Shown in pieces: positions 18,432-51,643 of a DNA stretch of 64,000 nucleotides. Below the pieces are notes generated by a model that did no database searches, was not told the origin of the DNA, and saw only the letters and a program-made list of their open reading frames with translations. The translations under genes and the position numbers were made by a program. Source of the DNA: Acidobacteriota bacterium (GTDB lineage Bacteria; Actinomycetota; Acidimicrobiia; Spongiisociales; ZC4RG35); the NCBI GenBank assembly GCA_022573225.1, contig JACZUI010000007.1:2183-66182 (forward strand), read 5' to 3'. Each line of letters starts with the position of its first letter. Within the stretch, counting starts at the first letter, position 1.

Positions 18432-19610
18432 TCAGGCGTTGGTTTCGCCCTGCACCCCCATCCCTACGTCTGCGATGACCTGGCCAACACAGATCAAGAG
18501 CACCACCAACGCCACCCACGTCGAACCGAGGAACGAGAGGAATCCAACGATCAGAAGCAGAAAGATGCCGAGGGCGCGGTTGCGTGCGATCGTCATGTGG
18601 AGGGTTGGTGAGCGTGTTGAAGAAGCAGCGAGATGGATGAGTGCCATCGCGCCGAATGCAACAGCGGATGAGCCGGCGAGCAGCCAGCGTTCGGCGGCAT
18701 CGAAGGCGCCATGGCCGGCACTCACCACTGCATGTTCGAGCCCTACTCCTGCCATCGCCACCCCGGTGGCGAGGAAGAAGTGGGAGTAGATCCATACGGT
18801 GGGCCGCCAGGCGCGACCGTCTTTGTCTCTCCTCCGAACCACCGATCCCTCGACGTTGTCGAAGTACATCCACCACATGCCGGCGGCCGCACCCACGCCA
18901 AACATCGCGGCGAGAGTGGTAGTAGCCGACCAGCCCGTTTGAGACAGCCCTACCACCACCGCGGCAATCGTTTCTCCGAGCACGACGATGGTGAAAAGCC
19001 CAAACCGCTCGGGTAGATGCGATACGTCGAGCGGCACACGCGCTTGTTCCCGGCGCATGAGCCAGGGTGTTGCGAGATCGATGCTGAATCCGGCCGCCCA
19101 GAGTGCGAAACGGGCCGGCTCGGGGACGAAGATCGAAATGGCCCAGAGCACGGCGCCGATCGAGAAACCGACGAGGTACCCGGTGACAAGCCTCCGTGTT
19201 GCGGGCACGTGTTTGCGGGCTCTCACGTACATGGCGATGAGGACGAGCCGTGACAGCGTGTAGGCCACGGCGAACGCCGCTGTCGAGCTGGCCGGCCCGG
19301 AGGAGAGTGAGGCAGCGGCTATCACAAGAGCGGCCATCTGGCCAGTAGCCAGAAGGCGATAGACCAGATCGTCGGTGTCATAGCGGTCGGCATAAAAGGT
19401 GTGGCTTGCCCAGAGCCACCACAAGAGCGCCATGTAGGCAACGTAGGACCAGACGCCACTCCAGGATGTGTCTTCGAGGAGCCTGCTGCCGAGAACTGCG
19501 ACAGCCACCACGAAGACGAGGTCGTAGAACAGCTCGAGCCAGGTGGCGGCGCGTTCCCCCTCTTCCGAGAGGGTGCGGAGCCGTGGCGGGCGAATGGTGG
19601 CGATCCTCAA
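18432..19610 (-). CDS. Low-temperature-requirement protein A (LtrA) family membrane protein
   Basis: N-terminal WLELFYDLVFVVAV signature and a polytopic hydrophobic body. Confidence 0.75.
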   Translation of the reverse strand: MRIATIRPPRLRTLSEEGERAATWLELFYDLVFVVAVAVLGSRLLEDTSWSGVWSYVAYMALLWWLWASHTFYADRYDTDDLVYRLLATGQMAALVIAAASLSSGPASSTAAFAVAYTLSRLVLIAMYVRARKHVPATRRLVTGYLVGFSIGAVLWAISIFVPEPARFALWAAGFSIDLATPWLMRREQARVPLDVSHLPERFGLFTIVVLGETIAAVVVGLSQTGWSATTTLAAMFGVGAAAGMWWMYFDNVEGSVVRRRDKDGRAWRPTVWIYSHFFLATGVAMAGVGLEHAVVSAGHGAFDAAERWLLAGSSAVAFGAMALIHLAASSTRSPTLHMTIARNRALGIFLLLIVGFLSFLGSTWVALVVLLICVGQVIADVGMGVQGETNA

Positions 19611-19844
19611 CGGAGTGATATCCGGATCATTTGGAGCCGGACCTTACCGGGGAGGCTCTGGGAGCCCGCTGAGCAATGCATGTCACTCATCTCGACGACC
19701 AGATCATCGCCACTCGCGGTGTCCTCGGCCCCGCCATTCCGCCCCAAGGAGTGGCGAAACCTCGTCCTTGCGAGTGACGCGCCTGGCCGCCGATCTGACC
19801 AACGGCATTATTCAGCCGACTCCTAGACCCCTAGATTGCCTCGT

Positions 19845-20162
19845 ATGACCGAAGACGAGCTACGCGATGGGGTGAGGCGTCTTCTGTCCCGGTATGACCT
19901 TTCCGAAGGTCGGGTGCTCGCGGGGACCGGATTCTTCGTTGACGGGCGCCTGGTGGTCGCCGTTATCGGGGCCGAGTTGTGTCTTCGCCTCGACGAGAGC
20001 CACAAGGTGGCCCGCTCCGATATCTCGCTGCTCCACTTTGCCGGTCGCCCTGTGCCGGGCTGGGCCGTCGTTGATGGCGACCAGCTCGACGACGATTCCC
20101 TGGCCGGTTGGGTCAACCGAGGGTTGGAGCAGCTTGGAGCCATCAACGAGTCAGGTCGCTAG
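19845..20162 (+). CDS. TfoX N-terminal-domain-like small protein (tentative)
   Basis: The size and the pattern GFFVDGRLVVAV..ELCLRLDE resemble the TfoX_N fold. Weak call. Confidence 0.35.
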   Translation: MTEDELRDGVRRLLSRYDLSEGRVLAGTGFFVDGRLVVAVIGAELCLRLDESHKVARSDISLLHFAGRPVPGWAVVDGDQLDDDSLAGWVNRGLEQLGAINESGR

Positions 20163-20239
20163 GGCCCTCCTTCGTCGCCTACGACTGTGCGAAAGGCTTG
20201 CCACTAGCCGTAACAGTGGCGTATCCTGATGGAGACGAA

Positions 20240-20330
20240 GCGCTCATCTAGAGCGGTGGAGGGAACAGGCCCTTTGATACCGCGGCAACCGGCGCAAGCA
20301 CGGTGCCAATGCCTGGATCGATGAGCTGAC
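20240..20330 (+). promoter_or_regulatory. SAM-I (S-box) type riboswitch aptamer in the metH leader
   Basis: GCUCAUC UAGAG CGGUGGAGGGA ACAGGCCC UUUGAUACC GCGGCAACC ... GGUGCCAAUGCC ... GAUGAGC. P1 pairs 20242-20248 with 20320-20326. The GGUGGAGGGA kink-turn/P2, GGCAACC..GGUGCC P3 and AAU junction all match the S-box consensus. P4 looks minimal or absent, so this may be a SAM-I/IV-like variant. Confidence 0.8.
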
Positions 20331-20435
20331 CTGGGGCTTTGGCCTTTGGCGCTCCTCAAGCGTTTCGAGAGAAACTAAGGAGTTGCCCACGGTGACCAAG
20401 TCAGATCCGTGCTGTATCCAATGTCCGGAGAAACG

Positions 20436-23400
20436 ATGACGGCCTATCTGGATGCCGTTGCGTCCGGTGTCGTCATTTTCGACGGTGCCACTGGCACCAA
20501 CCTCCAAACAGTGGGCTTGACGGCCGACGATTTCGGCGGCCCGTCATTGGAAGGCTGCAACGAGCTTCTCAACGTCACCCGTCCCGACGTGGTCCGGGCC
20601 CTGCACAGGTCGTTTCTGGATGTCGGGGTGGATGTCATCGAAACGAATACGTTTGGCGCCTTCTCGGTGCCGTTGAGCGAATACGGGTTGGAGAAACGGT
20701 CATACGAGATCGCCGCCGCCGGTGCCACTCTCGCCAGGGAGACCACCGACGCGTATACGGCCGCTGATGGGCGTCCCCGTTATGTAGCCGGATCGATCGG
20801 ACCCGGGACCAAGTTCGCCACTCTCGGCCAGATCACCTATATGGACTTGGTCGATTCCTATCAGGTTGAAGCGAGAGGCCTGATCGACGGGGGCGTCGAC
20901 CTCGTGATCATCGAAACCCAGTTCGATCTTCTTGGCGCCAAGGCCGCCATCGAAGGTGCCCGCCGCGCCATGCGTGACGCCTCGGTTGATCTTCCCGTCC
21001 AGGTCCAGGTCACGATCGAACTGACCGGTCGCATGTTGCCCGGAACAGAGATTGGAGCCGCCCTCAGTACGCTCGAAGCCCTCCATCCTGATGTGATCGG
21101 GCTCAACTGCGCCACCGGGCCCGGCGAGATGTACGAGGCGATCCGTCACCTCACCCGCTACTCGAGCGTTCCGGTCTCGGCGATCCCAAACGCCGGGCTT
21201 CCCCATGTCGAGAACGGGGAGATGGTCTATGACCTCGGCGCCGATGACCTGGCCGCCCATCTCGCGTCTTTCGTCACCGAGTTTGGGGTGGGAGTCATTG
21301 GGGGTTGCTGTGGCACCGGCCCCGAGCACCTCAGCGCAGTGGTGGAAGCCGTTCGGCCTCTCGAACCGAAGGACAGAGATCCTGAGTCGATCCCGTCGGC
21401 GGCTTCGATCTACAGCCAGGTTCCGTTCGATCAGGATGCATCATTCCTGATCATCGGCGAGCGGGCCAACGCCAACGGGTCAAAAGCCTTCCAGGAGGCG
21501 CTGCTGTCGGACGACCTCGAGTCGTGCGTCGCCATCGGAAAGAGTCAGTTGCGTGAGGGGGCTCATCTGGTCGACCTCTCTGTGGACTACGTCGGGCGCG
21601 ACGGGGTGGCCGACATGGAGAGGCTTGCTGCGGCTTTCGCTACCGATGTTGCAGCCCCGGTTGTGCTCGACTCGACCGAACCTGAGGTGATGGAGGCCGG
21701 TCTCCAGCAGCTCGGGGGGCGTTGTGTCCTGAACAGCGCCAATCTGGAAGATGGCGAAGGTGAAGGCTCCCGCATCGACCGGGTACTGACGCTGGCCCGC
21801 ACCTATGGCGCAGCGGTCATCTGCCTCCTGATCGACGAGGAGGGCCAGGCCAGGACTCTCGAGTGGAAGATGAGAGTGGCCCATCGGATCCACGACCTGG
21901 CTGTTGAGAAGTACGGGCTCGAGCCTTCCGATCTCATCTTCGATGCGCTGACCTTTCCGCTGACTACCGGTGGCGAGGACCTGCGACGCGACGGGATAGC
22001 CACGCTGGAGGCGATCAAGAGGATCAAGAAAGAGCTGCCGGGGACACGGACGGTGCTCGGAGTCTCCAATGTGTCCTTCGGTCTCAATCCGGCGGCTCGA
22101 CGGGTCATCAACTCGGTGTTTCTCCATGAAGCGGTGCAGGCAGGGCTCGACGCCGCGATCGTGCATGCCGGGAAGATCGAGCCGCTGTCGAACATCGACC
22201 CGGAACAGCGCGAGACCGCCTTCGATCTGGTGTACGACCGTCGAGAAGAGGGATACGACCCGTTGGAGAAGCTGCTGCAGCTCTTCGCCGGCGTGACCAC
22301 GACCGACGAGTCAGTCGACACTTATGAGGGCCTGGTTGTTGAGGATCGGCTCCCCAAGCGGATCATTGATGGTGATCAGAAGGGCATTATCGAGGACCTG
22401 GATCAGGCCCTGGACATGGGGCATAAGCCACTGGACATCATCAACCGTTTTCTGCTCGCCGGGATGAAGGTCGTCGGCGACCTGTTTGCGACCGGTGAGA
22501 TGCAGCTTCCGTTCGTCCTCAAGTCCGCCGAAACGATGAAGAAGGCAGTTGCACATCTCGAACCTCTCATGGAGAAGGCCGAGACGAATACTCGCGGCAA
22601 GATCGTGCTGGCCACCGTGCAAGGCGACGTCCATGACATCGGGAAGAACCTGGTCGACATCATCCTCAGCAACAACGGCTACCAGGTCCACAACCTCGGG
22701 ATCAAGGTGAGTATCTCCGAGATGGTCGCTGCCTATCGGGAGATGGGGGCCGATGCCATCGGGATGAGCGGACTGCTGGTGAAGTCGACGCTGATCATGA
22801 AGGACAACCTCGAGGAGCTGGAACGCCAGGGTCTCGGTCATGTTCCTGTCTTGCTCGGAGGTGCTGCCCTGACTCGGCGGTACGTCGAGTCTGATCTTCG
22901 CTCCCGCTACGCGGGACCCCTCTATTACGGCAAGAACGCCTTTGCCGGGCTCGACGCCATGGCCCACATCGCCGCCGGCGATGCGGCTCCTCAGCCGACG
23001 GCGCCCCGGGTGCGAGCCCGCGGTGCCGGAGAATCCGAGACTGTGCCGAATCGGTCGCCCTCGGTGAAGACCGACAATCAGATCTTCAAGCCACCGTTCG
23101 TGGGCTCCCGCGTCGTGAAGGGCATCTCCCTTGACGAGATAACCCCCTTCTTCAACCTCACCGCCCTGTTTCGGAACCAGTGGCAGTATCGGCCGGAGTC
23201 CGGCGAGACCGATGCGGAGTTCAAGGAGCGACTCGCTCCTTTGTTGCGCGAGCAGATGGCGCGAGCCCGTGCCGAAGATCTTCTCCACCCTCAGGTTGTG
23301 TACGGATACTTCCCGGCCAACGGCGACGGGGACGAGCTGGTGATCTGGGAGGATGAAGATCGAGTCTCGGAGCGCGCTCGGTTCGCCTTTCCCCGCCAGC

Positions 23401-23900
23401 AGGAAGATCCGTTCTTTTGCATCGCCGACTTCTTCAGGCCGGTCGGCGAGGAGATCGACTACGCCGCGTTCCACATCGTCACCATGGGACGCCGTATCTC
23501 AGAGCGCGCAGCCGAGCTGTTCGCCGCCGACGAGTATCAGGACTACCTCCATCTTCACGGACTGGGGGTGGAGATGGCAGAGGCGCTCGCCGAGCACTGG
23601 CATCACCGGGTCAGAACCGAATGGGGTTTCGCTACCGAGGACGGGCCGTCATTGCTCGGTCTGTTCCGTCAGAAGTATCGGGGGGGCCGGTATTCGTGGG
23701 GCTATCCGGCTTGTCCCGACCTGGAGGACAACGAGAAGGTGGCCGACCTCCTGGGCGCCAAACGCATCGGGATCGAGGTCGGTGAAGCCACGTCGTATCA
23801 GTACCAGCCGGAACAGACGACATCAGCGATCATCTGTCATCACCCTCAGGCCAAGTACTTCATCGCCCGCAAACCCAAGGAGGCCCGCAATGCTGATTGA
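20436..23900 (+). CDS. metH: Cobalamin-dependent methionine synthase
   Basis: All modules are recognisable: Hcy-binding (GLNCATGP, GGCCGT), pterin-binding, the B12 cap and binding region (DVHDIGKN, the DxHxxG motif) and the AdoMet activation domain. I chose ATG 20436 because GGAG lies 5 nt upstream. Confidence 0.95.
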   Translation: MTAYLDAVASGVVIFDGATGTNLQTVGLTADDFGGPSLEGCNELLNVTRPDVVRALHRSFLDVGVDVIETNTFGAFSVPLSEYGLEKRSYEIAAAGATLARETTDAYTAADGRPRYVAGSIGPGTKFATLGQITYMDLVDSYQVEARGLIDGGVDLVIIETQFDLLGAKAAIEGARRAMRDASVDLPVQVQVTIELTGRMLPGTEIGAALSTLEALHPDVIGLNCATGPGEMYEAIRHLTRYSSVPVSAIPNAGLPHVENGEMVYDLGADDLAAHLASFVTEFGVGVIGGCCGTGPEHLSAVVEAVRPLEPKDRDPESIPSAASIYSQVPFDQDASFLIIGERANANGSKAFQEALLSDDLESCVAIGKSQLREGAHLVDLSVDYVGRDGVADMERLAAAFATDVAAPVVLDSTEPEVMEAGLQQLGGRCVLNSANLEDGEGEGSRIDRVLTLARTYGAAVICLLIDEEGQARTLEWKMRVAHRIHDLAVEKYGLEPSDLIFDALTFPLTTGGEDLRRDGIATLEAIKRIKKELPGTRTVLGVSNVSFGLNPAARRVINSVFLHEAVQAGLDAAIVHAGKIEPLSNIDPEQRETAFDLVYDRREEGYDPLEKLLQLFAGVTTTDESVDTYEGLVVEDRLPKRIIDGDQKGIIEDLDQALDMGHKPLDIINRFLLAGMKVVGDLFATGEMQLPFVLKSAETMKKAVAHLEPLMEKAETNTRGKIVLATVQGDVHDIGKNLVDIILSNNGYQVHNLGIKVSISEMVAAYREMGADAIGMSGLLVKSTLIMKDNLEELERQGLGHVPVLLGGAALTRRYVESDLRSRYAGPLYYGKNAFAGLDAMAHIAAGDAAPQPTAPRVRARGAGESETVPNRSPSVKTDNQIFKPPFVGSRVVKGISLDEITPFFNLTALFRNQWQYRPESGETDAEFKERLAPLLREQMARARAEDLLHPQVVYGYFPANGDGDELVIWEDEDRVSERARFAFPRQQEDPFFCIADFFRPVGEEIDYAAFHIVTMGRRISERAAELFAADEYQDYLHLHGLGVEMAEALAEHWHHRVRTEWGFATEDGPSLLGLFRQKYRGGRYSWGYPACPDLEDNEKVADLLGAKRIGIEVGEATSYQYQPEQTTSAIICHHPQAKYFIARKPKEARNAD

Positions 23901-24681
23901 GTCGGCCGGCTGGCTGCGAGTCGCGGAAATCAACCCGCCGGAGTTGCCCGATCTCAGCCATCTGGATTTGGCGCCGGCCTGGAGCCATGTGCTCGTCACC
24001 GACAACGTCTTCGGTCGGATCCGGGTGTCGCCCTATGCCTTCTCGGCAAGGATCACCCATGACACGCCTCACGTTCACCCAACCGTCGTGGTGTCGACGC
24101 GGGATCGGAACATCCTCGCCATCGAATCCGAGGTTCGGGGTGCGCTGGGGAATGGGGTGAACTCGTTCCTCGTGGTGATCGGTGACACGGTTCCTCACAT
24201 CGATCACATGGCCCATCACTATGAGATTGTCGAGCATCTTCGGCGTCTTCGAGACGACCTTCCCAACTTCGAGGTAGGGATGCCGACCCGTTTCCGGGAA
24301 TGGCAGTTCCGTCGTCGGATCGAGCTCGGTACCGATTTCTTCGTGACGGGCCCGGTGCTGGATCCGGACGTGATCGGCCCCGAGATGGATCGGCTCAACC
24401 TGCGCGACGACGATCCGCCGGTCTTGCTGATGGTGATTCCCCCCTTCAGTCCGACGTGGGTCGATCAGATGGAGTCCATTGGAGCGGTTCCCTCGAGTGA
24501 AAAGCTTCGAAAGCGACTGGCCGAGGTTCCCCCCGACGTGCACCGGAAGCTCGGGTGGGAGATAACAGCCGAGATGGAACAGGCTGCCCGTGACGCCGGG
24601 GCGGCCGGCGTTGTGCTTATGGGCCTCAAGTTCAGCTCGGTTGTCGATGAGGCGGCTCAGGCCTGGCCAGAACTCCAGTAG
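23890..24681 (+). CDS. Methylenetetrahydrofolate reductase (MetF-like) family protein
   Basis: VAEINPP, VLVTDNVFGRIRVS, VVVSTRDRN...FLVVIGD and FFVTGPVLD follow the MTHFR TIM-barrel pattern. The ATG overlaps the metH stop by 11 nt. Confidence 0.65.
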   Translation: MLIESAGWLRVAEINPPELPDLSHLDLAPAWSHVLVTDNVFGRIRVSPYAFSARITHDTPHVHPTVVVSTRDRNILAIESEVRGALGNGVNSFLVVIGDTVPHIDHMAHHYEIVEHLRRLRDDLPNFEVGMPTRFREWQFRRRIELGTDFFVTGPVLDPDVIGPEMDRLNLRDDDPPVLLMVIPPFSPTWVDQMESIGAVPSSEKLRKRLAEVPPDVHRKLGWEITAEMEQAARDAGAAGVVLMGLKFSSVVDEAAQAWPELQ

Positions 24682-24691
24682 CTTCCGGGGC

Positions 24692-25345
24692 GTGACTCCT
24701 TTCGATCGCCAGGTGCGGGTCCAGATCTACCGCCATGTGATCGCCAGTTCCGAGGGGCCATCTGTGGCGCAGATCGCGGCAGAACGAGGATGGGCCCCCG
24801 ACGAGGTGGCCGAGGCCTTCCACAGACTCGCATCGGAACATCGGATTGTCCTGGTCCCTGAGGAGGACCGAGTCTGGATGGCCCATCCGTTCTCCGGAGT
24901 AGAGACCGGGTACGAGGTGATAGTCGGGAATCGCTCGTGGTTTGCCAACTGTGCCTGGGATGCCCTCGGCGTCCTGGCGTTGATGGGCGACGGCAAAGCC
25001 ATCTCGGCGCACGGCGAGACCGAGTTGGTGTGGAGCGTCGCCAACGGCACGGTGAGTCCCGATGGGGTGATTCACCTCCCAGTCCCGGCTCGAGAGTTCT
25101 GGGACGACATCGGCTTCACCTGAGGGAACATTCACGGGTTCCGGTCGGAATCCGAGCTTTCCTCCTGGCTGAGGGAGCACAACCAGGCGATTGGGTACAT
25201 TGCCCCGGTGCAGCAGATCTTCGAAATGTCGGTCGACTGGTACGCAGCGCGGCTGGATGAGGACTGGAGACCGCCTTCCCCCCAAGAGGCCTCCTCCTTG
25301 TTTGCCAGCCACGGGCTCGTCGGAGATTTCTGGGCGCTGGGCTAG
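24692..25345 (+). CDS. MerB-like (organomercurial lyase family) protein, 217 codons with an in-frame TGA (25121-25123) read as candidate selenocysteine
   Basis: The N-terminal HTH-like region and NCAWDALGVLALMG correspond to the MerB Cys96/Asp99 motif. The TGA aligns with the MerB FCC(159/160)HVHFF position. The frame stays open for 73 further GC3-rich codons (GNIHGFRSESELSSWLREH...) to TAG 25345. A SECIS-like hairpin follows. If TGA is a true stop, the CDS is 24692-25123. Confidence 0.55.
25135..25154 (+). promoter_or_regulatory. SECIS-like stem-loop downstream of the MerB-like TGA
   Basis: CGGGUUCC-GGUC-GGAAUCCG: an 8-bp stem with one G-U pair and a GGUC tetraloop at +23..+26 from the U of UGA. 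It resembles the E. coli fdhF SECIS apical loop. Confidence 0.5.
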
Positions 25346-25358
25346 GGGCGTCGAGACA

Positions 25359-26165
25359 ATGAGCCGTTTTGGATCTGAACAAGAGATGCTTGCCTTCTTC
25401 GACGAGCGCTATCTCCACGTCCTGGCACCGGTCATGCTGGAGATCGAGGCCGAGGCTCGGGGAACCGACTACGGAAGCGTCTCATGGAGCACCCGCGGAC
25501 AGGTCGAGCGGATGGCGACACACCTTGACCTTGGCAACGACAGCCGCCTGCTCGACATCGGGGCGGGGGCGGGCTGGCCCGGGCTCTATGTGGGCCAACG
25601 AACAGGGTGTCATGTCACCATGCTCGACTTTCCGGTCCATGGACTGAAGCTGGCGCTCGATCGGGCCGCTCGCGATTCGGTGGCGGCTCATGCGTCTGTA
25701 GCCGATGGGGCGTTGCTCCCCTTCTCCGAGGGCGTCTTTGAGGGAGTGATTCATAGTGACCTGTTGTGTTGCCTGACCCGTAAGCTCGAGGTTCTGGCGG
25801 AGTGCCGGCGAGTGGTTCGCCCAGGTGGGAGGATGGCCTTCACGGTGATAGAGGTGGTGCCCGACCTGGCTCCTGACGCGCACACGATCGCGGTCGAGTC
25901 GGGTCCGGAGTTCGTCGACACCGAATCGCCCTACGCCGATGTTCTCGCGGAAACGGGTTGGACCTTGAGCCAGGTTGAGGATGTGACCTCCGAGTTCCAG
26001 TCCATGGGTCGAACGCTGCTGCAATCAAGGGAGTCCCGCCGCGAGGCTCTCGTGGCCTTACTGGGCGCTGAGAACGTCGAGGAGATGATCGACCGCAACT
26101 GGGGAACCGTCGCATCGACAGAAGAGGGCCGGCTGTGTCGACGCCTCTACCTGGTCGAGGCATGA
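25359..26165 (+). CDS. Class I SAM-dependent methyltransferase
   Basis: Motif I LLDIGAGAGWPG, plus the post-I acidic residue and motif II/III pattern (VRPGGRMAF). I chose ATG 25359. The ORF-track start at 25191 is in a different frame from the coding-like MerB continuation and overlaps it. Confidence 0.8.
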   Translation: MSRFGSEQEMLAFFDERYLHVLAPVMLEIEAEARGTDYGSVSWSTRGQVERMATHLDLGNDSRLLDIGAGAGWPGLYVGQRTGCHVTMLDFPVHGLKLALDRAARDSVAAHASVADGALLPFSEGVFEGVIHSDLLCCLTRKLEVLAECRRVVRPGGRMAFTVIEVVPDLAPDAHTIAVESGPEFVDTESPYADVLAETGWTLSQVEDVTSEFQSMGRTLLQSRESRREALVALLGAENVEEMIDRNWGTVASTEEGRLCRRLYLVEA

Positions 26166-26629
26166 GCATCGGGTGGACGGGTCTCGTCTTGGCGGCCTTG
26201 GCCCTCGTTTCGTGCTCGGGGACGACCACCATCGTGGGCGACGCCGGCGTATCGAACCTGGCCGTGGGAGCGAGTGTCATCTCGTCGTCGCCTGGTCCGG
26301 GTAGCGGTGTGAGAACTGTCGCCGACGGTGATATGAACACCGGGTGGACCGGGCCGGATCCACCCTATTGGTTTGAGATCGATCTCGGTCGGCAGGTTGC
26401 GATCGAACGTGTTCGAGTGCTGGTCGGTCGGGATGTTGTGGCCAAGGTAGGAGTCAACGTGGGTGTGCACGACAATCCCGGTCGCCGGCCAGGATCATTT
26501 GACGGTGCATTACCGGGCGGGGACTGGCTTGACATCACGGTTGATTACGAGGCGCGGTTTATCCGGGTAACGGTTGAGGAAGCCGACGGTCACGCGACCT
26601 GGTTGGAGGTGGAGGTGATTCCTGGGTGA
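26162..26629 (+). CDS. Lipoprotein with a discoidin (F5/8 type C)-like domain
   Basis: Signal peptide plus lipobox (LALVSC). DGDMNTGW...YWFEIDLG...IERVRV is typical of a discoidin domain. ATGA overlap with the methyltransferase stop. Confidence 0.55.
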   Translation: MSIGWTGLVLAALALVSCSGTTTIVGDAGVSNLAVGASVISSSPGPGSGVRTVADGDMNTGWTGPDPPYWFEIDLGRQVAIERVRVLVGRDVVAKVGVNVGVHDNPGRRPGSFDGALPGGDWLDITVDYEARFIRVTVEEADGHATWLEVEVIPG

Positions 26630-26671
26630 ACAGTCCACAGCAAAGCGTTCTGAGTTTTCGCCGGTGGGCTT

Positions 26672-27574
26672 CTAGGCGTAGGACATGCCCATGCGCTTCT
26701 CGAAGCGTTCCGCCTTCTCCATGATCTGTGCCGGTACCGCCATGATCTTCTCTTGGAGCTCGGCCGCTGCCGGCTTGAGCCCGGTGAGATTGGCGATGCG
26801 CCAATCACGGAGCACGGGCATCACCACCTTGTCGTGGTGGATGCGGAGGTTGTAAACACCGGCCTTGGCCACTTCGAGCGAACGGCGCACGAATCGGGGC
26901 ATCGCCACACCGGGCATCTGGAATCCGTCGAGGGTTTTGAAGATCCCCGCCAGAACTGTCTCCGGGCTTTGGTCCAACATCGCCTGCATGACGCTCTTGT
27001 AGAAGATGTAGTGGTGGTTTTCGTCGGCGGCGATGTTCTTCATCATCTCGTAGGCGGCGGGGTCATCGGTGATCTTGCCGGCGTTGCGGTGACTCACTCT
27101 CGTTGCCAGCTCCTGGACCGCGGTGTAAGCGAAGATCTCGGTGGGATCGTCGTATGTCGGCTCGTAGCCGTTGATCACCGTGGCCATCCGGTCGTCCTCC
27201 AGCTCGTCCGGATCGCAGTTCCGCGAGGTCAGTAGATAACTTCTGATCCCGATCGCGTGTTGGCCTTCCTCGGCGGTCCATAGGTGATTCCATGCAGTGA
27301 ATGCCGAAGTCTTCGGCAAGTTCTGCTCGATGAGAGAGTGGTAGTAGGGGAGGTTGTCCTCGGTGAGAAGGTTCAGCACAAGCGATGTTCTGGCGTTCTC
27401 CGAGATGGTGCACTGTGAGACATCCCACGGCTTGTCGCGGAAACTCTCGCCTCTCTCCCACGGGACGATGTCGTGGAAGTACCAGTGGGTCCGCCGGGCC
27501 TTGTGCTCTTCAGTCAACCGGGCCACGTCGGGCTCGATTGCCTCGACCAGTTCGTAATTCTCGTTCAGGGCCAT
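26672..27574 (-). CDS. Acyl-ACP desaturase (soluble di-iron, DesA-like)
   Basis: Two di-iron EXXH motifs (TAEEGQHA and ADENHHY) and a length of about 300 aa. Confidence 0.8.
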   Translation of the reverse strand: MALNENYELVEAIEPDVARLTEEHKARRTHWYFHDIVPWERGESFRDKPWDVSQCTISENARTSLVLNLLTEDNLPYYHSLIEQNLPKTSAFTAWNHLWTAEEGQHAIGIRSYLLTSRNCDPDELEDDRMATVINGYEPTYDDPTEIFAYTAVQELATRVSHRNAGKITDDPAAYEMMKNIAADENHHYIFYKSVMQAMLDQSPETVLAGIFKTLDGFQMPGVAMPRFVRRSLEVAKAGVYNLRIHHDKVVMPVLRDWRIANLTGLKPAAAELQEKIMAVPAQIMEKAERFEKRMGMSYA

Positions 27575-27720
27575 TGGTTCCTCATAGCGGGGGATGTGAC
27601 AAGAACAATATCAGCGAGCGTATAGCAGGGGGAATCGGCCGCCTGATACCCAGGACTGGACCACCCTCATCGTCAGAAGTATAGGGCGGCCCATCACACC
27701 TGCTCGTTACCGTTTCGCCA

Positions 27721-43469: not shown

Positions 43470-44804
43470 TCACGCCCAGCTGATGTGAGCGAGGGTGGAG
43501 GTGGTGCAGTAGAAAAGGCCGCCTTCGCCGTCCGGTGATAGGAACATGCCGTTGGCGATACGGGACCCGGTTTCAGCTCGATCGATCAGGAGCCCGCTTG
43601 CGATGTCGACGACAACTACGTCGTCAGTCCGGTCTTTCGTGAAGTCGTTGATGGCAAGCTCACCGGATTCGGGGTATACCACCGGCTGCATTGACGGCCG
43701 AATGTCCAGTTGCCAGCTGACTTCGAGTCCATCGCCGCTCGTGTCGATCCCCGCCAGACCACCATTGATCGAGTCCCAGGCGATCGCCATCCCATACTCG
43801 GGGACGTGGACCGGGGGAGCGATGATCCCTCCTCCGGGGGTTCCGAAGGGCTCGATTGTCTGGACGTTGCGTTCATCGGTGAGGTCGAATCGGATAAGTC
43901 TCTGTGCGCCCGTCCAAGGTGCTGGAAGCCTCCAAGACAGGTCGCTGCCAGGAGGAGACCGGAACCGACCGTTGGGTTCCAGCTGATGGATGCGTCGGAC
44001 TGACTCGATATCTCCACAATCCATCATCCAACCAGCGCCGTCTGTGAGGCATATGTCCCAGCCCAGACCCCATCGGTCGTCCGGTTCGCGATAGCGCGGC
44101 TGCCAGTCGTCGACCACCAGCCCATCGGGTTCAACCACCAGGCGCCAAATATGCTCTGTGCCTGGTACATAAATGTACTCCGCCCCCATGTCGTCGATGT
44201 CAGCAGCGATCCGTCCCATCGACCCTTCTGGGAGTACCAACGGTTCGTGGACGAGCTCGAGGGTGTCGGGATCGACGCGAGTGATCGTGGTGCCGCCTTG
44301 GCCTTCGAGGCGAAGGTCCTTTGTGATCAGTGTCCCGTCACCCAACGCAAGGAGCCCGTTGTGACTCCGGTCAACTGGAAGCTCGCGCTCGACGAGTATC
44401 GACAGGTCATCGGGATCTAGGCGGTGCAAGTAGGAGCCGTTGACGGACATGATGGATCCGTTGGCGTGAGCAAGGATTGCTCCGCACCAAACATGGTCGC
44501 CACATTGCAGTTCTCCGGAGCTGGCCAGCGGTTCTAGAGAATCGGGGTCGATTCGCTCCACCCATCCGAAAGGAGGAGGGCCGCTGAAGGCAGCCATCGT
44601 GCCGCCCAAATACCACTCTTCGGAGTCACGTCGAATGACCATGACATTCCAACGGTCATTTCGCCGAGTAGTGGTTCTGGCCGTGCCGCCGGCTGCGTCA
44701 AGCCGACCGGGTGCAGCCTTCTGACGCCTGTTGCCGCCGCACTCGACCGGCCAGGACGACGACCAATAGCCACCGTGCGGTTCGGTTCTGTCGAGAAGCG
44801 TCAT
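43470..44804 (-). CDS. Hypothetical protein, probably beta-propeller-like. Start uncertain (ATG 44804 or 44642).
   Basis: Long GC3-rich ORF with repeated beta-strand-rich segments. I recognise no family signature. The first roughly 54 codons are Arg-rich and look non-protein-like. Confidence 0.55.
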   Translation of the reverse strand: MTLLDRTEPHGGYWSSSWPVECGGNRRQKAAPGRLDAAGGTARTTTRRNDRWNVMVIRRDSEEWYLGGTMAAFSGPPPFGWVERIDPDSLEPLASSGELQCGDHVWCGAILAHANGSIMSVNGSYLHRLDPDDLSILVERELPVDRSHNGLLALGDGTLITKDLRLEGQGGTTITRVDPDTLELVHEPLVLPEGSMGRIAADIDDMGAEYIYVPGTEHIWRLVVEPDGLVVDDWQPRYREPDDRWGLGWDICLTDGAGWMMDCGDIESVRRIHQLEPNGRFRSPPGSDLSWRLPAPWTGAQRLIRFDLTDERNVQTIEPFGTPGGGIIAPPVHVPEYGMAIAWDSINGGLAGIDTSGDGLEVSWQLDIRPSMQPVVYPESGELAINDFTKDRTDDVVVVDIASGLLIDRAETGSRIANGMFLSPDGEGGLFYCTTSTLAHISWA

Positions 44805-45004
44805 CGGGTGAGCGTCATCAGCCTTGAGCCCACCATAGGAGGCCTTGGGAGGTCGCTGTTTGAGTCGGGTTGACCGAGAACATTGGCTCTAGTCGGTCAG
44901 TGGCCCCACCAACCTGGAGCAGGCCACGACCCAGGGCCCACTACCCAGCCCCACAAATCAGTAGAAGCGCGGGGGCAAGGGCGTGCGTGAGCTAACTTTG
45001 CCCA

Positions 45005-49920: not shown

Positions 49921-51072
49921 CTACGACCCGGGAGCAGGCTCGTTCCTCAAGCGGATGTGCTCGATAACAAGGCTGACCACCAGGATCGCGGTCACAATGG
50001 CAGCGAAGACCTGCGCGTCCAGCGATCCCGCGAGCCAAGCCAGGGCGATCAGCACTACGGCAGCAGCGAGTCGCTCAGTCGGGATTCGCCTTATTGCCCG
50101 ATATGCCGCTCCAACCACCGAGAGCAGGACAAGCGCCACACCTACTGCCATTGCGAATCGACCTTCGGGGGGAATCGGATCGGTCGGATGCGCCACCACG
50201 TCCTCCAGTGCCAGCGCATAGAACACGATCCCGACCACAAGCGGATAGTGGAGGATGGAGTAGGCGTCACGGGCGAATCTCCCGCGTTCCTGACCGGTGA
50301 GTTGGGTGAGATGGGCCTCCATCCTCGGCGCAGCTCGGTCAAAGTAGGACCACCAGATTGCAGCGACCCCTACAAAGGCAATTGCGAGGGCCGTGATGTG
50401 CGCAGCGTCTCGCTCTACCTCTGACGCAGCGAGACCAAGCCCGACTACAGACTCGCCCAGTGCAATGATTATGAACAGACCGTTTCTCTCTGCGAAGTGT
50501 TTGGCGTCTATCGCCCACGACCCTTTGCCGGCATTGACAGCGCCCACAATGTCGAGAACCGCTCCTGCGACCCAGAGAACGCCTAGCCAGGGAGGTTCGA
50601 GAAAGCCACCGACGAGGACCAGGACCGAGGCCGCCCCGGCCAAAGGGAAGAATGTATAGAACGCCGCCCGCTGCTCTGGATGCGACTTCGACGCCACCCA
50701 GTAAAGGCCTGATGCAAGGGCGCGGACAGCAAAGTAGGTGACCGCGAACCAGCGTGAACTGTCACCGAAGGCCTCCGGGACAGCAAGGGCCATCAGGAGA
50801 GTCGTGCCCATTGCACCCAGGATGAAGAGACGGGTCGAGGTCGATGACGTGCCCGTCCAGTTGGTGGTCCAGGTGTACATCGACCAGGTCCACCACAAGA
50901 GCCAAAGCAAGAACGCGCCCTGAACCAGTCCCGCCGCGGTGGGCTGATGATGGACGAAGCCGACCACCTGGGTGATGGCGAAGACGTAGACCAGATCGAA
51001 GAACAGCTCGAGGGTCGAGGCGTTGCGCTCGGTTCCGCCCTTCACGATGTCGAGCCGGATCTCGTCGGTCAT
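49921..51072 (-). CDS. LtrA family membrane protein (second paralogue)
   Basis: LELFFDLVYVFAITQV signature. I chose ATG 51072 (MTDEIRL...). Confidence 0.75.
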   Translation of the reverse strand: MTDEIRLDIVKGGTERNASTLELFFDLVYVFAITQVVGFVHHQPTAAGLVQGAFLLWLLWWTWSMYTWTTNWTGTSSTSTRLFILGAMGTTLLMALAVPEAFGDSSRWFAVTYFAVRALASGLYWVASKSHPEQRAAFYTFFPLAGAASVLVLVGGFLEPPWLGVLWVAGAVLDIVGAVNAGKGSWAIDAKHFAERNGLFIIIALGESVVGLGLAASEVERDAAHITALAIAFVGVAAIWWSYFDRAAPRMEAHLTQLTGQERGRFARDAYSILHYPLVVGIVFYALALEDVVAHPTDPIPPEGRFAMAVGVALVLLSVVGAAYRAIRRIPTERLAAAVVLIALAWLAGSLDAQVFAAIVTAILVVSLVIEHIRLRNEPAPGS

Positions 51073-51094
51073 GGCGTGAGAAGCTAGCTGGCCA

Positions 51095-51643
51095 CTAGGA
51101 ACCGGCTTGACGCTTCCGATAGGCGGCAACCGCTTCCCGGGTCGAGCATGTCGAGGAGCAGTGCAGCCTCGAGCGATTGCGCGAGGTGTCGACGTAGACG
51201 TCGTTGCATGTAGTCGAGTTGCAAACTCCGAAACGGTCGACCCCATGGTCGACGATCACGCTGGCAAGCCCCATGGCGGTGGTAGCACCGAGCCACTGAA
51301 GCATCGATGAGCCAACGGGCTCGAAGTGGAGATGGGGGGTGCCGCTGTGAACACTCACGCGAGGTTCCGCCCCATGTTCGCTCAGAATTGCATTGACTCG
51401 TTCGGCCGCGGTTGCGTCGTCGGGGGACGCGATCACCTCTCTGAGCGAGTCCCGAAGGCCGCGAACGCGGGCCAGATTTCGAACCACCGGAGGCCGGGCC
51501 ACACCCTTCCACATATCCGAATAGTCATCCAGGAATGCCTTCAAATCGTCGGTGGAAGTGATGGTGTCGCCGTCGAGTTGCTTGGTGTTCACCAATGCGA
51601 TGGCGAGTGCCACAGGAGCGTCTAGGTAATGAGAGAAATCCAT
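51095..51643 (-). CDS. CGNR zinc-finger (ABATE domain) putative regulator
   Basis: C-terminal FGVCNSTTCNDVYVDTSRNRSRLHCSSTCSTREAVAAYRKR is the CGNR zinc ribbon. Confidence 0.8.
   Translation of the reverse strand: MDFSHYLDAPVALAIALVNTKQLDGDTITSTDDLKAFLDDYSDMWKGVARPPVVRNLARVRGLRDSLREVIASPDDATAAERVNAILSEHGAEPRVSVHSGTPHLHFEPVGSSMLQWLGATTAMGLASVIVDHGVDRFGVCNSTTCNDVYVDTSRNRSRLHCSSTCSTREAVAAYRKRQAGS

What the first reader, a model, noticed from the sequence alone, without database searches (positions are those of the whole stretch)
20240..26629. SAM-riboswitch-led operon joins metH and an MTHFR-like gene to a MerB-like lyase, a SAM methyltransferase and a lipoprotein, with no mer genes nearby
The five + strand genes are packed with overlaps or gaps of no more than 13 nt:
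- The metH stop and MTHFR-like start overlap by 11 nt.
- 10 nt separate the MTHFR-like gene from the MerB-like start.
- 13 nt separate the MerB-like gene from the methyltransferase.
- The methyltransferase and lipoprotein share an ATGA overlap.
The only recognisable regulatory element is the S-box aptamer upstream of metH. MerB homologues normally sit in mer operons with merR/merA/merT/merP, and none is present here. A carbon-metal(loid) bond lyase homologue, possibly with Sec, is co-transcribed with the methyl-cycle enzymes and a methyltransferase and controlled by SAM level. This suggests a role in handling a methylated metal or metalloid or another methyl-donor by-product, such as methyl-Hg, methyl-Se, methyl-As or damaged methyl-cobalamin chemistry, rather than classical mercury resistance. 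That functional idea is speculation. The gene linkage is observed.
Basis: partly seen in the sequence, partly recalled or inferred. Interest (0 to 1): 0.7.

Follow-up and report, generated by a model that had tools for sequence, protein, structure and literature searches.

The report
Unannotated selenocysteine MerB-like lyase family
The five-gene cluster behind a SAM riboswitch is real, but its link to methionine synthase is a local accident of gene order; what matters is that the "MerB-like" gene encodes selenocysteine at its catalytic site and belongs to a large family that databases cut short at that codon.

Summary
Observation confirmed. A SAM-I riboswitch (20241-20327) precedes metH, a short MTHFR-fold gene, a MerB-like gene with an in-frame TGA (25121), a class I methyltransferase and an F5/8-type-C lipoprotein. 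The junctions are as stated: 11-nt overlap, 10 nt, 13 nt and ATGA. No mer genes were found in the ORFs scanned.

The TGA is a selenocysteine codon.
- It aligns with catalytic Cys159 of MerB.
- 79 of 80 related genome loci from at least seven phyla carry TGA there, and one carries TGC.
- The frame stays open for about 75 further conserved codons.
- A covarying hairpin with an invariant GGUC loop starts 11 nt after the TGA.
- Arg CGG and Ser UCG, which form that loop, are fixed in 75/75 TGA forms. They vary in all three Cys forms checked.

The family is not SaoL, the only MerB-like selenoprotein I found described, and NCBIfam has no model for it.

The functional link to the methyl cycle is not supported. 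Riboswitch-metH-MTHFR is a conserved pair. The genes after it (histidine kinase, secreted protein, MerB-like, methyltransferase, lipoprotein) come and go between related Acidimicrobiia. Outside that clade the MerB-like gene sits in unrelated contexts.

Likely function, by inference only: a Cys/Asp/Sec lyase that cleaves carbon-metal bonds.

The parts
20198..20227 (+). Sigma-70-like promoter candidate (TTGCCA-18-TATCCT) just upstream of the riboswitch
   Evidence: Consensus scan. It is the only promoter-like site in 19600-27700 and no more than chance would give (1 found, 1.5 expected).
20241..20327 (+). SAM-I (S-box) riboswitch aptamer
   Evidence: RF00162 at 70.6 bits against gathering 44.4. 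The same element sits upstream of metH in L001, L007, L009 and L010. Aptamer conservation is shown in A3.
20392..20439 (+). 15-codon upstream ORF with a strong Shine-Dalgarno (AAGGAG, 20377-20382). Its TGA overlaps the metH ATG as ATGA.
   Evidence: Read from the sequence. A short ORF in the same position, though not of the same sequence, is present in L010 and L007. Its function is not tested.
20436..23900 (+). metH, cobalamin-dependent methionine synthase (ORF listing starts it at GTG 20409)
   Evidence: TIGR02082 at 1257 bits against cutoff 1011, with five Pfam domains. The start is inferred from alignment with relatives.
23890..24681 (+). Short (263 aa) divergent MTHFR-fold protein that overlaps the metH stop by 11 nt
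   Evidence: - PF02219 scores only 19 bits, below gathering 24.
- The AF2 model (pLDDT 77, pTM 0.81) matches MTHFR structures at E 1e-9 and TM 0.66-0.74.
- 1197 homologues were found; the 120 listed are 73-82% identical, and those carrying a source name are Acidimicrobiia/Actinomycetota MAGs.
- It follows metH in every locus examined.
24692..25345 (+). MerB-like selenoprotein gene (217 aa; Cys87, Asp90, Sec144)
   Evidence: - Both halves hit PF03243.
- The sequence aligns with MerB2 (5c17) and MerB.
- Family truncation pattern.
- TGA conservation.
- MerB fold of the Cys-form homologue P0004.
25121..25123 (+). UGA selenocysteine codon at the position of catalytic Cys159 of MerB
   Evidence: - Aligned with Cys of MerB2 and MerB.
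- TGA in 79 of 80 genome loci and TGC in 1.
- Cys in 71 of 79 full-length representatives.
25135..25154 (+). SECIS-type hairpin: an 8-bp stem with a GGUC tetraloop, starting 11 nt after the UGA
   Evidence: - Fold.
- 89.6% of cells paired, 6 of 8 pairs with compensatory change, covariation 0.353 against 0.159 in shuffles (0/500), slid controls at most 0.105.
- Loop codons CGG-UCG are fixed in 75/75 UGA forms (74 loci; window) and differ in all 3 Cys forms.
25359..26165 (+). Class I SAM-dependent methyltransferase of unknown substrate
   Evidence: - Methyltransf_11/25.
- No NCBIfam model reaches its cutoff; the best is the DVU_1556 family at 56 bits against 155.
- The family is small, with 72 hits.
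- It pairs with the MerB-like gene only within the syntenic clade.
26162..26629 (+). Lipoprotein with an F5/8 type C (discoidin) domain
   Evidence: PF00754 at 31 bits, with lipobox LVSC. A 57%-identical orthologue in L093 follows the histidine kinase and secreted protein with no MerB-like gene or methyltransferase nearby.

Best explanation
Two things of different age sit in one probable transcription unit.

(1) A conserved housekeeping pair. A SAM-I riboswitch controls metH and a short MTHFR-fold enzyme, which together regenerate methionine from homocysteine. This is an ordinary S-box regulon.

(2) Variable cargo in the slot downstream of that pair. In this lineage the cargo is a MerB-like selenoprotein, a class I methyltransferase and an F5/8 lipoprotein.

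The MerB-like gene is intact, not truncated. Its UGA (25121) is read as selenocysteine with the help of a SECIS hairpin (25135-25154, GGUC loop, 11 nt after the UGA). That places Sec at the position of catalytic Cys159 of organomercurial lyase, beside the retained Cys87 and Asp90, which correspond to MerB Cys96 and Asp99.

Shown:
- the selenocysteine recoding signature;
- the MerB fold;
- the retained catalytic triad;
- the family's breadth: at least 554 loci in the GTDB species-representative genome collection, with at least seven phyla among the 80 kept;
- its distinctness from SaoL.

Inferred:
- The protein cleaves a carbon-metal(loid) bond by protonolysis as MerB does. Methylmercury or another trace organometal is the most likely substrate, and Sec would raise affinity and nucleophilicity.
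- In this genome it is co-transcribed with metH and so comes under SAM control incidentally.

My confidence by step: selenoprotein about 0.9; MerB-type organometal lyase chemistry about 0.45; metH adjacency is incidental synteny about 0.8.
For: Sec codon:
- The TGA aligns with the Cys of MerB2 (5c17) and with Cys159 of MerB.
- 36 of 36 truncated database homologues end at the same ...FT residue.
- 79 TGA and 1 TGC in 80 genome loci, never TAA or TAG. The downstream frame is open for 68-91 codons with a conserved FRSE..W motif.
- Coding periodicity continues after the TGA, with no conserved restart codon.
- 71 of 79 full-length representatives carry Cys at the site.

SECIS:
- Hairpin with covariation.
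- Loop-forming codons CGG and UCG are invariant in the UGA forms. The Cys forms L013, L094 and L095 use CGC-TCG, CGG-TCC and AGG-AGC and lack the hairpin.
- From my own knowledge: the GGUC loop and its distance (G23-C26 counted from the U of UGA) nearly match E. coli fdhF, where SelB contacts G23/U24 of a GGUC loop.

Fold: the AF2 model of Cys form P0004 (pLDDT 83) matches only MerB2 and MerB in the PDB (E 4e-10 to 1e-5).

Sec machinery exists within class Acidimicrobiia (bioRxiv 10.64898/2026.04.03.716425).

Incidental linkage.

Housekeeping pair.
Against: - No biochemical data exist for any member of this family.
- selA/B/C/D and tRNA-Sec could not be checked in this organism. None is in the 64-kb window or in the 60 loci scanned for tRNAs.
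- The hairpin lies in coding sequence and the sequences are related, so part of the covariation signal could come from protein constraints and shared ancestry.
- Only three Cys-form DNAs were available for the contrast.
- A Hg-Se bond would make product release hard, and no MerA-like acceptor is encoded nearby. Catalytic turnover on mercury is therefore uncertain.
- Direct adjacency to metH-MTHFR does recur in two sub-lineages that are about 55% identical in the MerB-like protein. Some selective value of co-expression cannot be excluded.
Confidence: 0.62

Rival explanations
1. The MerB-like lyase and the methyltransferase form a SAM-regulated module that serves the methyl cycle. It would remove methylated metal(loid) by-products of methylcobalamin/SAM chemistry or damaged methyl donors, and is placed behind the riboswitch for that reason.
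For: - Gaps of 10-13 nt and no terminator-like site between the MTHFR-like gene and the end of the cluster.
- The metH-MTHFR-MerB-like-methyltransferase order recurs in L001, L005 and L007-L009, with the riboswitch upstream where it is visible.
- L010 keeps metH within 2 kb, in divergent orientation.
- From my own knowledge: methylcobalamin is a natural organometallic compound that methylates Hg(II) non-enzymatically.
Against: - The association is confined to one syntenic clade, in which the desaturase and ABC transporter are equally 'linked'.
- Within the clade the MerB-like gene is separated from metH by a histidine kinase and a secreted protein (L006, L081). It is found without metH (L003/4, L084-86). 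It is absent from four of four further metH-MTHFR loci (L090-93) and is a deletion remnant in L087.
- About 65 loci in other phyla show no methionine genes nearby.
- The region after the aptamer has no classical terminator. Control may act on translation of the leader ORF and metH, and need not extend to distal genes.
Confidence: 0.13
2. The protein keeps the MerB fold but is not a lyase. The Cys87/Sec144 pair would act as a selenenylsulfide redox centre or as a high-affinity metal(loid)-binding or sensing site, possibly with the N-terminal winged-helix-like domain acting in regulation.
For: - Most bacterial selenoproteins are thiol/selenol oxidoreductases (reviews PMC9312934 and PMC13188914).
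- Weak structural matches of the N-terminal ~65 residues to winged-helix regulators (ranks 12-50).
- 28 of 79 full-length Cys-form representatives have Cys instead of Asp at the proton-donor position, a Cys3 site typical of metal binding.
- Two-component systems are recurrent neighbours in Acidimicrobiia.
Against: - Every Sec form examined keeps the MerB proton-donor Asp in an invariant ANCAWD motif.
- The only significant structural matches are MerB enzymes over the whole length.
- Canonical MerB has the same N-terminal domain.
Confidence: 0.2
3. The gene is broken. TGA is a true stop, giving a non-functional 143-aa fragment, or a two-piece protein restarted downstream.
For: Gene callers in public databases-aa products and sometimes a separate 62-71-aa C-terminal ORF.
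Against: - The same TGA, never another stop codon, is kept in 79 of 80 loci across phyla at 35-86% protein identity.
- The downstream frame is always open and conserved.
- No conserved restart codon follows the TGA.
- A conserved SECIS-type hairpin is present.
- The missing part holds a catalytic residue.
- A genuinely degraded copy looks different: L087 has an internal deletion.
Confidence: 0.03

Closest known systems
SaoL, the MerB-like organometallic lyase selenoprotein of the SAO system (NF040728; Haft & Gwadz, bioRxiv 10.1101/2022.07.06.499078)
   Same: It has the MerB superfamily fold. Sec replaces the residue equivalent to MerB Cys159. Databases truncate it at the UGA. It is not part of mercury-resistance operons.
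   Different: - SaoL has a CU dipeptide; this family has an invariant T-U with no adjacent Cys.
- The window protein scores 29 bits on NF040728 against a cutoff of 140, and only over its N-terminal half.
- SaoL occurs in strict anaerobes (Clostridia, Deltaproteobacteria, Spirochaetes) inside a nine-gene SAO locus with other selenoproteins.
- This family is mainly in Acidimicrobiia, Thermoleophilia, Acidobacteriota, Gemmatimonadota, NC10 and Chloroflexota and has no conserved neighbourhood.
Canonical organomercurial lyase MerB / MerB2 (PDB 3F0P, 5C17; PF03243)
   Same: It shares the fold (TM 0.52-0.67) and the catalytic Cys-x-x-Asp motif. The third ligand is at the same aligned position.
   Different: - Sec replaces Cys159, and there is no Cys160.
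- Sequence identity is only about 18-20%.
- It falls far below the MerB equivalog cutoffs (30 bits against 193, and 20 against 200).
- No merR/T/P/A genes lie nearby in the window, and no recurrent mer-like neighbour appears in 76 loci.
S-box (SAM-I riboswitch) control of methionine-regeneration genes
   Same: An RF00162 aptamer lies directly upstream of metH and an MTHFR gene. It is conserved in relatives.
   Different: Nothing unusual in kind. The expression platform is not a classical terminator, and a short SD-led upstream ORF overlaps the metH start. Extra unrelated genes follow in this lineage.
MetF/MTHFR, including the flavin-independent mycobacterial enzymes (PDB 7WMZ, 8QPJ)
   Same: The model has the TIM-barrel MTHFR fold. 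The gene is coupled to metH by overlapping stop and start codons.
   Different: It is short (263 aa) and below the Pfam gathering score. It gives no sequence-level PDB hit even with a profile. Cofactor use (FAD or none) is not determined.
E. coli fdhF SECIS (from my own knowledge)
   Same: A hairpin immediately 3' of the UGA, with a GGUC apical loop. Loop positions are 23-26 from the U of UGA here and 22-25 in fdhF.
   Different: The stem here is shorter (6-8 bp) and no bulged U was evident. SelB binding is not tested.

Membership tests
Bacterial selenoprotein gene (Sec-UGA recoding) | In-frame UGA at a position occupied by Cys in homologues (a Sec/Cys pair) | tested here: met
   TGA in 79 loci and TGC in L013. 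Cys in 71 of 79 full-length representatives. The site aligns with MerB Cys159.
Bacterial selenoprotein gene (Sec-UGA recoding) | Reading frame conserved past the UGA | tested here: met
   tblastn matches cover query residues 1-216 across the TGA. The frame stays open 68-91 codons with a conserved FRSE..W motif. Codon periodicity persists and there is no conserved restart.
Bacterial selenoprotein gene (Sec-UGA recoding) | SECIS stem-loop just downstream of the UGA with G(U) in the apical loop | tested here: met
   Hairpin at +15..+34 with an invariant GGUC loop and covariation above both controls. The loop codons are fixed only in UGA forms.
Bacterial selenoprotein gene (Sec-UGA recoding) | selA, selB, selC (tRNA-Sec) and selD present in the same genome | not testable with these tools
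The machinery is reported in Actinomarinales, of the same class.
Canonical MerB organomercurial lyase | Score above the equivalog cutoff (NF009710 / NF033555) | tested here: not met
   30.2 bits against 193, and 20.5 against 200. The Pfam domain PF03243 is met by the N-terminal half (32 bits against 27).
Canonical MerB organomercurial lyase | Catalytic Cys96, Asp99 and Cys159 | tested here: inconclusive
   Cys87 and Asp90 are present in an invariant ANCAWD motif. The third position is Sec rather than Cys.
Canonical MerB organomercurial lyase | MerB three-dimensional fold | tested here: met
   The model of Cys-form homologue P0004 (48% identical to the window protein) matches 5c17 at E 4e-10 and TM 0.64/0.67, and MerB entries at E 2e-8 to 1e-5. 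The window protein itself could not be submitted.
Canonical MerB organomercurial lyase | mer operon context (merR, merT/P, merA) | tested here: not met
   No such domains in 38 window ORFs. No recurrent mer-like neighbour in 76 loci.
Canonical MerB organomercurial lyase | Protonolysis of Hg-C bonds | not testable with these tools
   Needs an enzyme assay.
SaoL (SAO-system MerB-like selenoprotein) | Score above the NF040728 cutoff | tested here: not met
   29 bits against 140, over residues 5-98 only.
SaoL (SAO-system MerB-like selenoprotein) | CU (Cys-Sec) dipeptide | tested here: not met
   The motif is [FY]-T-U-x-x-I in every locus.
SaoL (SAO-system MerB-like selenoprotein) | Nine-gene SAO neighbourhood | tested here: not met
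   The neighbours are metH, MTHFR, a methyltransferase, a histidine kinase, a GNAT acetyltransferase and others. No conserved transporter or selenoprotein cluster is present.
SAM-I riboswitch (RF00162) | Covariance-model score above gathering, with the full-length aptamer | tested here: met
   70.6 bits against 44.4, covering model positions 1-108.
SAM-I riboswitch (RF00162) | SAM-dependent control of the downstream genes | not testable with these tools
   The expression platform is unclear, with no classical terminator.
MTHFR (PF02219) | Pfam gathering score | tested here: not met
   19 bits against 24. Many close homologues do carry a precomputed PF02219 hit.
MTHFR (PF02219) | MTHFR TIM-barrel fold | tested here: met
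   The top 50 Foldseek PDB matches are all MTHFRs, at E 1e-9 to 7e-7 and TMq 0.54-0.74. The model's pLDDT is a moderate 77.
MTHFR (PF02219) | FAD-binding and catalytic residues; enzymatic activity | not tested
   I did not examine residue-level correspondence.

The most novel reading that the evidence does not exclude
This is a large selenoprotein family, unrecognised as far as I could search. It comprises Cys/Asp/Sec (and in some anaerobes Sec/Asp/Sec) MerB-type lyases spread through Acidimicrobiia, Thermoleophilia, Acidobacteriota, Gemmatimonadota, NC10, Chloroflexota and Desulfobacterales. These enzymes would demethylate methylmercury or another trace organometal independently of mer operons. 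Surveys of merB miss them because gene callers stop at the UGA and the catalytic Cys159 signature is then absent.
Probability: 0.3. Interest if true: 0.8.

Novelty: new variant of a known kind. Interest (0 to 1): 0.62.

Why it matters
Mer-independent breakdown of methylmercury in soils, sediments and oceans is poorly explained. Gene-based surveys count only MerB proteins that carry Cys96, Asp99 and Cys159.

A widespread MerB-fold family with selenocysteine at the catalytic site, carried by abundant soil and marine phyla, would be a concrete candidate for that missing activity. It would also be a direct molecular link between selenium and organometal chemistry.

The finding has practical value too. 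Hundreds of database entries named 'organomercurial lyase' or 'hypothetical protein' of about 143 aa are truncated annotations that need correcting.

It also settles the operon question. The SAM riboswitch-metH-MTHFR pair is ordinary, and the genes attached behind it in this genome are interchangeable cargo.

Tried and rejected
- I looked for a conserved neighbour of the MerB-like gene by clustering all ORFs within -7/+6 kb in 76 loci. Apart from clusters of ORFs overlapping the MerB-like gene itself, no cluster covers more than 13 loci. The ABC transporter, GNAT, histidine kinase/response regulator and TerB-like neighbours are all lineage-specific.
- I tested whether the lipoprotein is related to the recurrent secreted 350-aa neighbour. 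It is not.
- I looked for Sec machinery: tRNA-Sec and selA/B/D in the window and loci.
- I searched the window for other TGA-split ORFs with a SECIS-like hairpin. There are none.
- Sequence searches of the MTHFR-like protein against the PDB, alone and as a profile, found nothing. Only the structure comparison worked.
- An alignment that included the window's C-terminal fragment misplaced it, and I discarded it.
- The GOS (PMC2398784) and ISME 2016 (PMC5029168) papers, cited by a review for a 'MerB-like' selenoprotein, contain no mention of it in the text or supplements held.
- Two papers were not held: PMC9879109 and PMC12013261.
- One Cys-form locus had no DNA available.
- Folding the riboswitch expression platform gave no structure better than shuffles.

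Full report
**1.

Rfam places a SAM-I riboswitch aptamer at 20241-20327 on the + strand (70.6 bits against gathering 44.4). It is the only Rfam hit in the window. Five + strand genes follow.
- an 11-nt overlap between metH and the next gene;
- a 10-nt gap before the MerB-like gene;
- a 13-nt gap before the methyltransferase;
- an ATGA overlap between the methyltransferase and the lipoprotein.

The cluster ends against a convergent acyl-ACP desaturase gene (26672-27574, - strand).

The gene identities are as follows.
- metH is unambiguous (TIGR02082 at 1257 bits).
- The methyltransferase is a generic class I enzyme.
- The last gene is an F5/8-type-C lipoprotein.

Pfam scans of 38 ORFs spread over the 64 kb show housekeeping genes: trpE/C/B, DAHP synthase, a DEAD-box helicase, ABC transporters and luciferase-like oxidoreductases. 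They show no mer genes and no selenium-machinery genes. Composition is even at about 62% GC, and gene packing is tight throughout.

**2. The MerB-like gene is a selenoprotein gene.**

The frame 24692-25345 contains a single TGA at 25121. The part before it matches positions 1-41 of Pfam MerB, and the part after it matches positions 87-125. With Cys substituted at the stop, the protein aligns with MerB2 (5c17) and MerB. The substituted residue falls on the catalytic Cys (Cys159 in MerB), and the ANCAWD motif falls on Cys96/Asp99.

Database and genome evidence:
- A search of 5.8 billion proteins returned 547 homologues. Nearly all of the best 120 are about 143 aa long and cover 66% of the query.
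- In an alignment, 36 of 36 truncated homologues end at the same Thr.
- In the best 80 loci the codon at this site is TGA in 79 and TGC in one. It is never TAA or TAG.
- The frame then runs on for 68-91 conserved codons with the motif x-x-I-x-x-F-R-S-E..W.
- Third-position variability stays highest after the TGA, and no restart codon is conserved.
- In a library of 1.84 billion 50%-identity representatives, queried with Cys form P0004, there were 860 hits at E of 0.001 or better. Of the best 150, 58 end at the site, 79 span it (71 of those with Cys) and 5 are isolated C-terminal fragments.

This is the classical Sec/Cys signature.

**3. A SECIS element is present and under RNA-level selection.**

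Eleven nucleotides after the UGA an 8-bp hairpin with a GGUC loop begins (25135-25154).
- Across 75 UGA forms, 89.6% of cells pair.
- Six of eight pairs show compensatory changes. For example, columns 17/32 read CG 28, GC 23, UA 15.
- The covariation score is 0.353 against 0.159 in shuffles (0 of 500 reach it) and at most 0.105 when partners are slid.

Because the hairpin is coding sequence, I looked at synonymous usage. The Arg and Ser codons that form the loop are CGG and UCG in all 75 UGA forms (74 loci; the window). The three Cys forms for which DNA was available encode the same F-R-S peptide with CGC-TCG, CGG-TCC and AGG-AGC, and they do not form the hairpin.

From my own knowledge, the E. 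coli fdhF SECIS also presents a GGUC loop, at positions 22-25 from the U of UGA. SelB contacts G23 and U24 there. Here the loop is at positions 23-26.

Sec machinery could not be checked for this organism. It is reported for another order of the same class.

**4. Fold and relatives.**

The model has pLDDT 83 and pTM 0.81. Its only significant PDB matches are MerB2 and MerB, at E 4e-10 to 1e-5 and TM 0.45-0.67.

The literature I could search knows one MerB-like selenoprotein, SaoL of the anaerobic SAO system. SaoL has a CU motif and a nine-gene neighbourhood. The window protein differs from it in four ways:
- It scores 29 bits on the SaoL model against a cutoff of 140.
- It has T-U, not C-U.
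- It occurs in different phyla.
- It has none of that neighbourhood.

No model in NCBIfam release 20 (June 2026) reaches its cutoff, and NCBI-named members are 133-143-aa 'organomercurial lyase' or 'hypothetical protein' entries. Two possibly relevant papers were not available to me, so prior description cannot be fully excluded.

A survey of MerB diversity required Cys159, and so would have discarded these truncated entries. The same paper shows that more than half of merB genomes lack merA.

**5. The link to metH is local synteny, not a conserved functional unit.**

From the MerB-like side:
- Direct metH-MTHFR-MerB-like-methyltransferase order is found in the window, L001, L005 and L007-L009. 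The riboswitch is confirmed upstream in L001, L007 and L009.
- Closer and equally close relatives differ:
  - L081 and L006 have a histidine kinase and a Thr/Pro-rich secreted protein between the MTHFR gene and the MerB-like gene, and no methyltransferase.
  - L084-86 and L003/4 have the kinase, the secreted protein and the MerB-like gene without metH.
  - L010 has metH-MTHFR divergent, about 2 kb away.
  - L087 keeps the methyltransferase beside an 89-aa internally deleted remnant of the MerB-like gene.

From the metH side, four further Acidimicrobiia loci have riboswitch-type metH-MTHFR pairs that are 75-79% identical in the MTHFR protein. None has the MerB-like gene. One of them (L093) carries a 57%-identical orthologue of the lipoprotein after the kinase and secreted protein.

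The desaturase and ABC transporter are as syntenic as metH throughout the clade. In the remaining roughly 65 loci, from other phyla, there is no recurrent neighbour. Distant homologues of the methyltransferase are not next to MerB-like genes.

I conclude that riboswitch-metH-MTHFR is the conserved unit. The MerB-like gene, methyltransferase, kinase pair and lipoprotein are interchangeable cargo in the slot behind it.

**6. The housekeeping pair.**

The 263-aa protein after metH falls below the Pfam MTHFR threshold and has no sequence-level PDB match. Its model (pLDDT 77) matches MTHFRs from Thermus, E. coli and human, and the flavin-independent mycobacterial enzymes (E 1e-9, TM up to 0.74). 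A database search found 1197 homologues; the 120 listed are 73-82% identical, and those carrying a source name are Acidimicrobiia/Actinomycetota MAGs. 'MTHFR-like' is therefore right.

A promoter-like site precedes the riboswitch. No convincing terminator lies inside the cluster, so co-transcription is plausible. The region after the aptamer has no classical terminator and did not fold better than shuffled sequence, so how far SAM control reaches is unknown.

**7. Mechanism and verdict.**

Shown: Sec recoding, the MerB fold, the retained Cys/Asp, the family's breadth and the absence of any mer or SAO context.

Inferred:
- The protein carries out protonolytic cleavage of a carbon-metal(loid) bond. 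Sec would act as the second ligand or nucleophile, possibly tuned for trace substrates.
- Product release from a Hg-Se bond without MerA is a real difficulty for a catalytic role on mercury.
- A redox or metal-binding role is a serious rival.

As a SAM-riboswitch operon the finding is ordinary. As a selenoprotein it is a new, large variant of a recently recognised kind.

Noticed in passing
L066 (2038 and 2227), L067 (1838 and 2027), L068 and L073 (8247 and 8436): Family members in Anaerolineales, Desulfobacterales and a 'Bacteroidales' bin carry two in-frame TGAs. One is at the Cys159 site. The other replaces the first catalytic Cys (WGN*VWD instead of ANCAWD). These would be double-selenocysteine forms. 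The first UGA is followed by a longer, different hairpin.
   Followed up: partly
window 20377-20439: Between the riboswitch and metH lies a strong Shine-Dalgarno (AAGGAG) and a 15-codon ORF (MTKSDPCCIQCPEKR). Its TGA overlaps the metH ATG as ATGA. A short ORF occupies the same place in L010 (also with an ATGA overlap) and in L007, but the peptide sequence is not conserved. It may couple riboswitch control to metH translation.
   Followed up: partly
L087 5690-5959: An 89-aa ORF joins the first ~20 residues of the MerB-like protein to its last ~65. The whole catalytic core is deleted, while the neighbouring methyltransferase is intact. This is a genuine decay product, in contrast with the TGA forms.
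   Followed up: partly
Proteins P0198-P0298 (alignment A6): Among full-length Cys-form representatives, 28 of 79 have Cys in place of the proton-donor Asp (C-x-x-C plus C). A few have Trp at the Sec site, as P0005 does with FTW. Trp (TGG) is one mutation away from TGA.
   Followed up: partly
L081 5523-7978; L084 5491-7985; L003, L004, L006, L090, L092, L093: A histidine kinase, followed by a 350-367-aa signal-peptide protein with a Thr/Pro-rich linker, a C-terminal membrane anchor and no Pfam hit, is a recurrent pair downstream of metH-MTHFR and upstream of the MerB-like gene in Acidimicrobiia.
   Followed up: partly
L059, L060, L062, L064, L070, L072, L076: In Gemmatimonadales loci the MerB-like selenoprotein gene is followed by a GNAT acetyltransferase in seven loci. 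In six loci (five of those seven, plus L069) an ORF follows that I judged TerB-like by eye. A tRNA-Leu(taa) gene lies upstream in the five loci where tRNAs were scanned.
   Followed up: partly
L001, L004 (CAXMPS01), L009 (CAXMMT01): Contigs that are clearly Acidimicrobiia-like by gene content and synteny belong to MAGs labelled 'Gammaproteobacteria' and 'Boseongicola'. This suggests mis-binned or mislabelled assemblies. One bin (CAXMPS01) holds two different copies of the MerB-like selenoprotein gene.
   Followed up: no
window 18432-19610 (-) and 49921-51252 (-): There are two LtrA (low-temperature requirement A) paralogues in the window, each matching PF06772 at about 290 bits.
   Followed up: no
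window 43470-44885 (-): A 471-aa ORF with coding-like codon composition has no Pfam match at E of 1e-4 or better.
   Followed up: no
window 19845-20159 (+): A small TfoX_N-like ORF (22 bits, below the Pfam cutoff) sits just upstream of the riboswitch. A TfoX_N-like gene lies a few kb upstream of the MerB-like gene or of metH in L001, L003/4, L084-87 and L090, so it is part of the same synteny block.
   Followed up: partly
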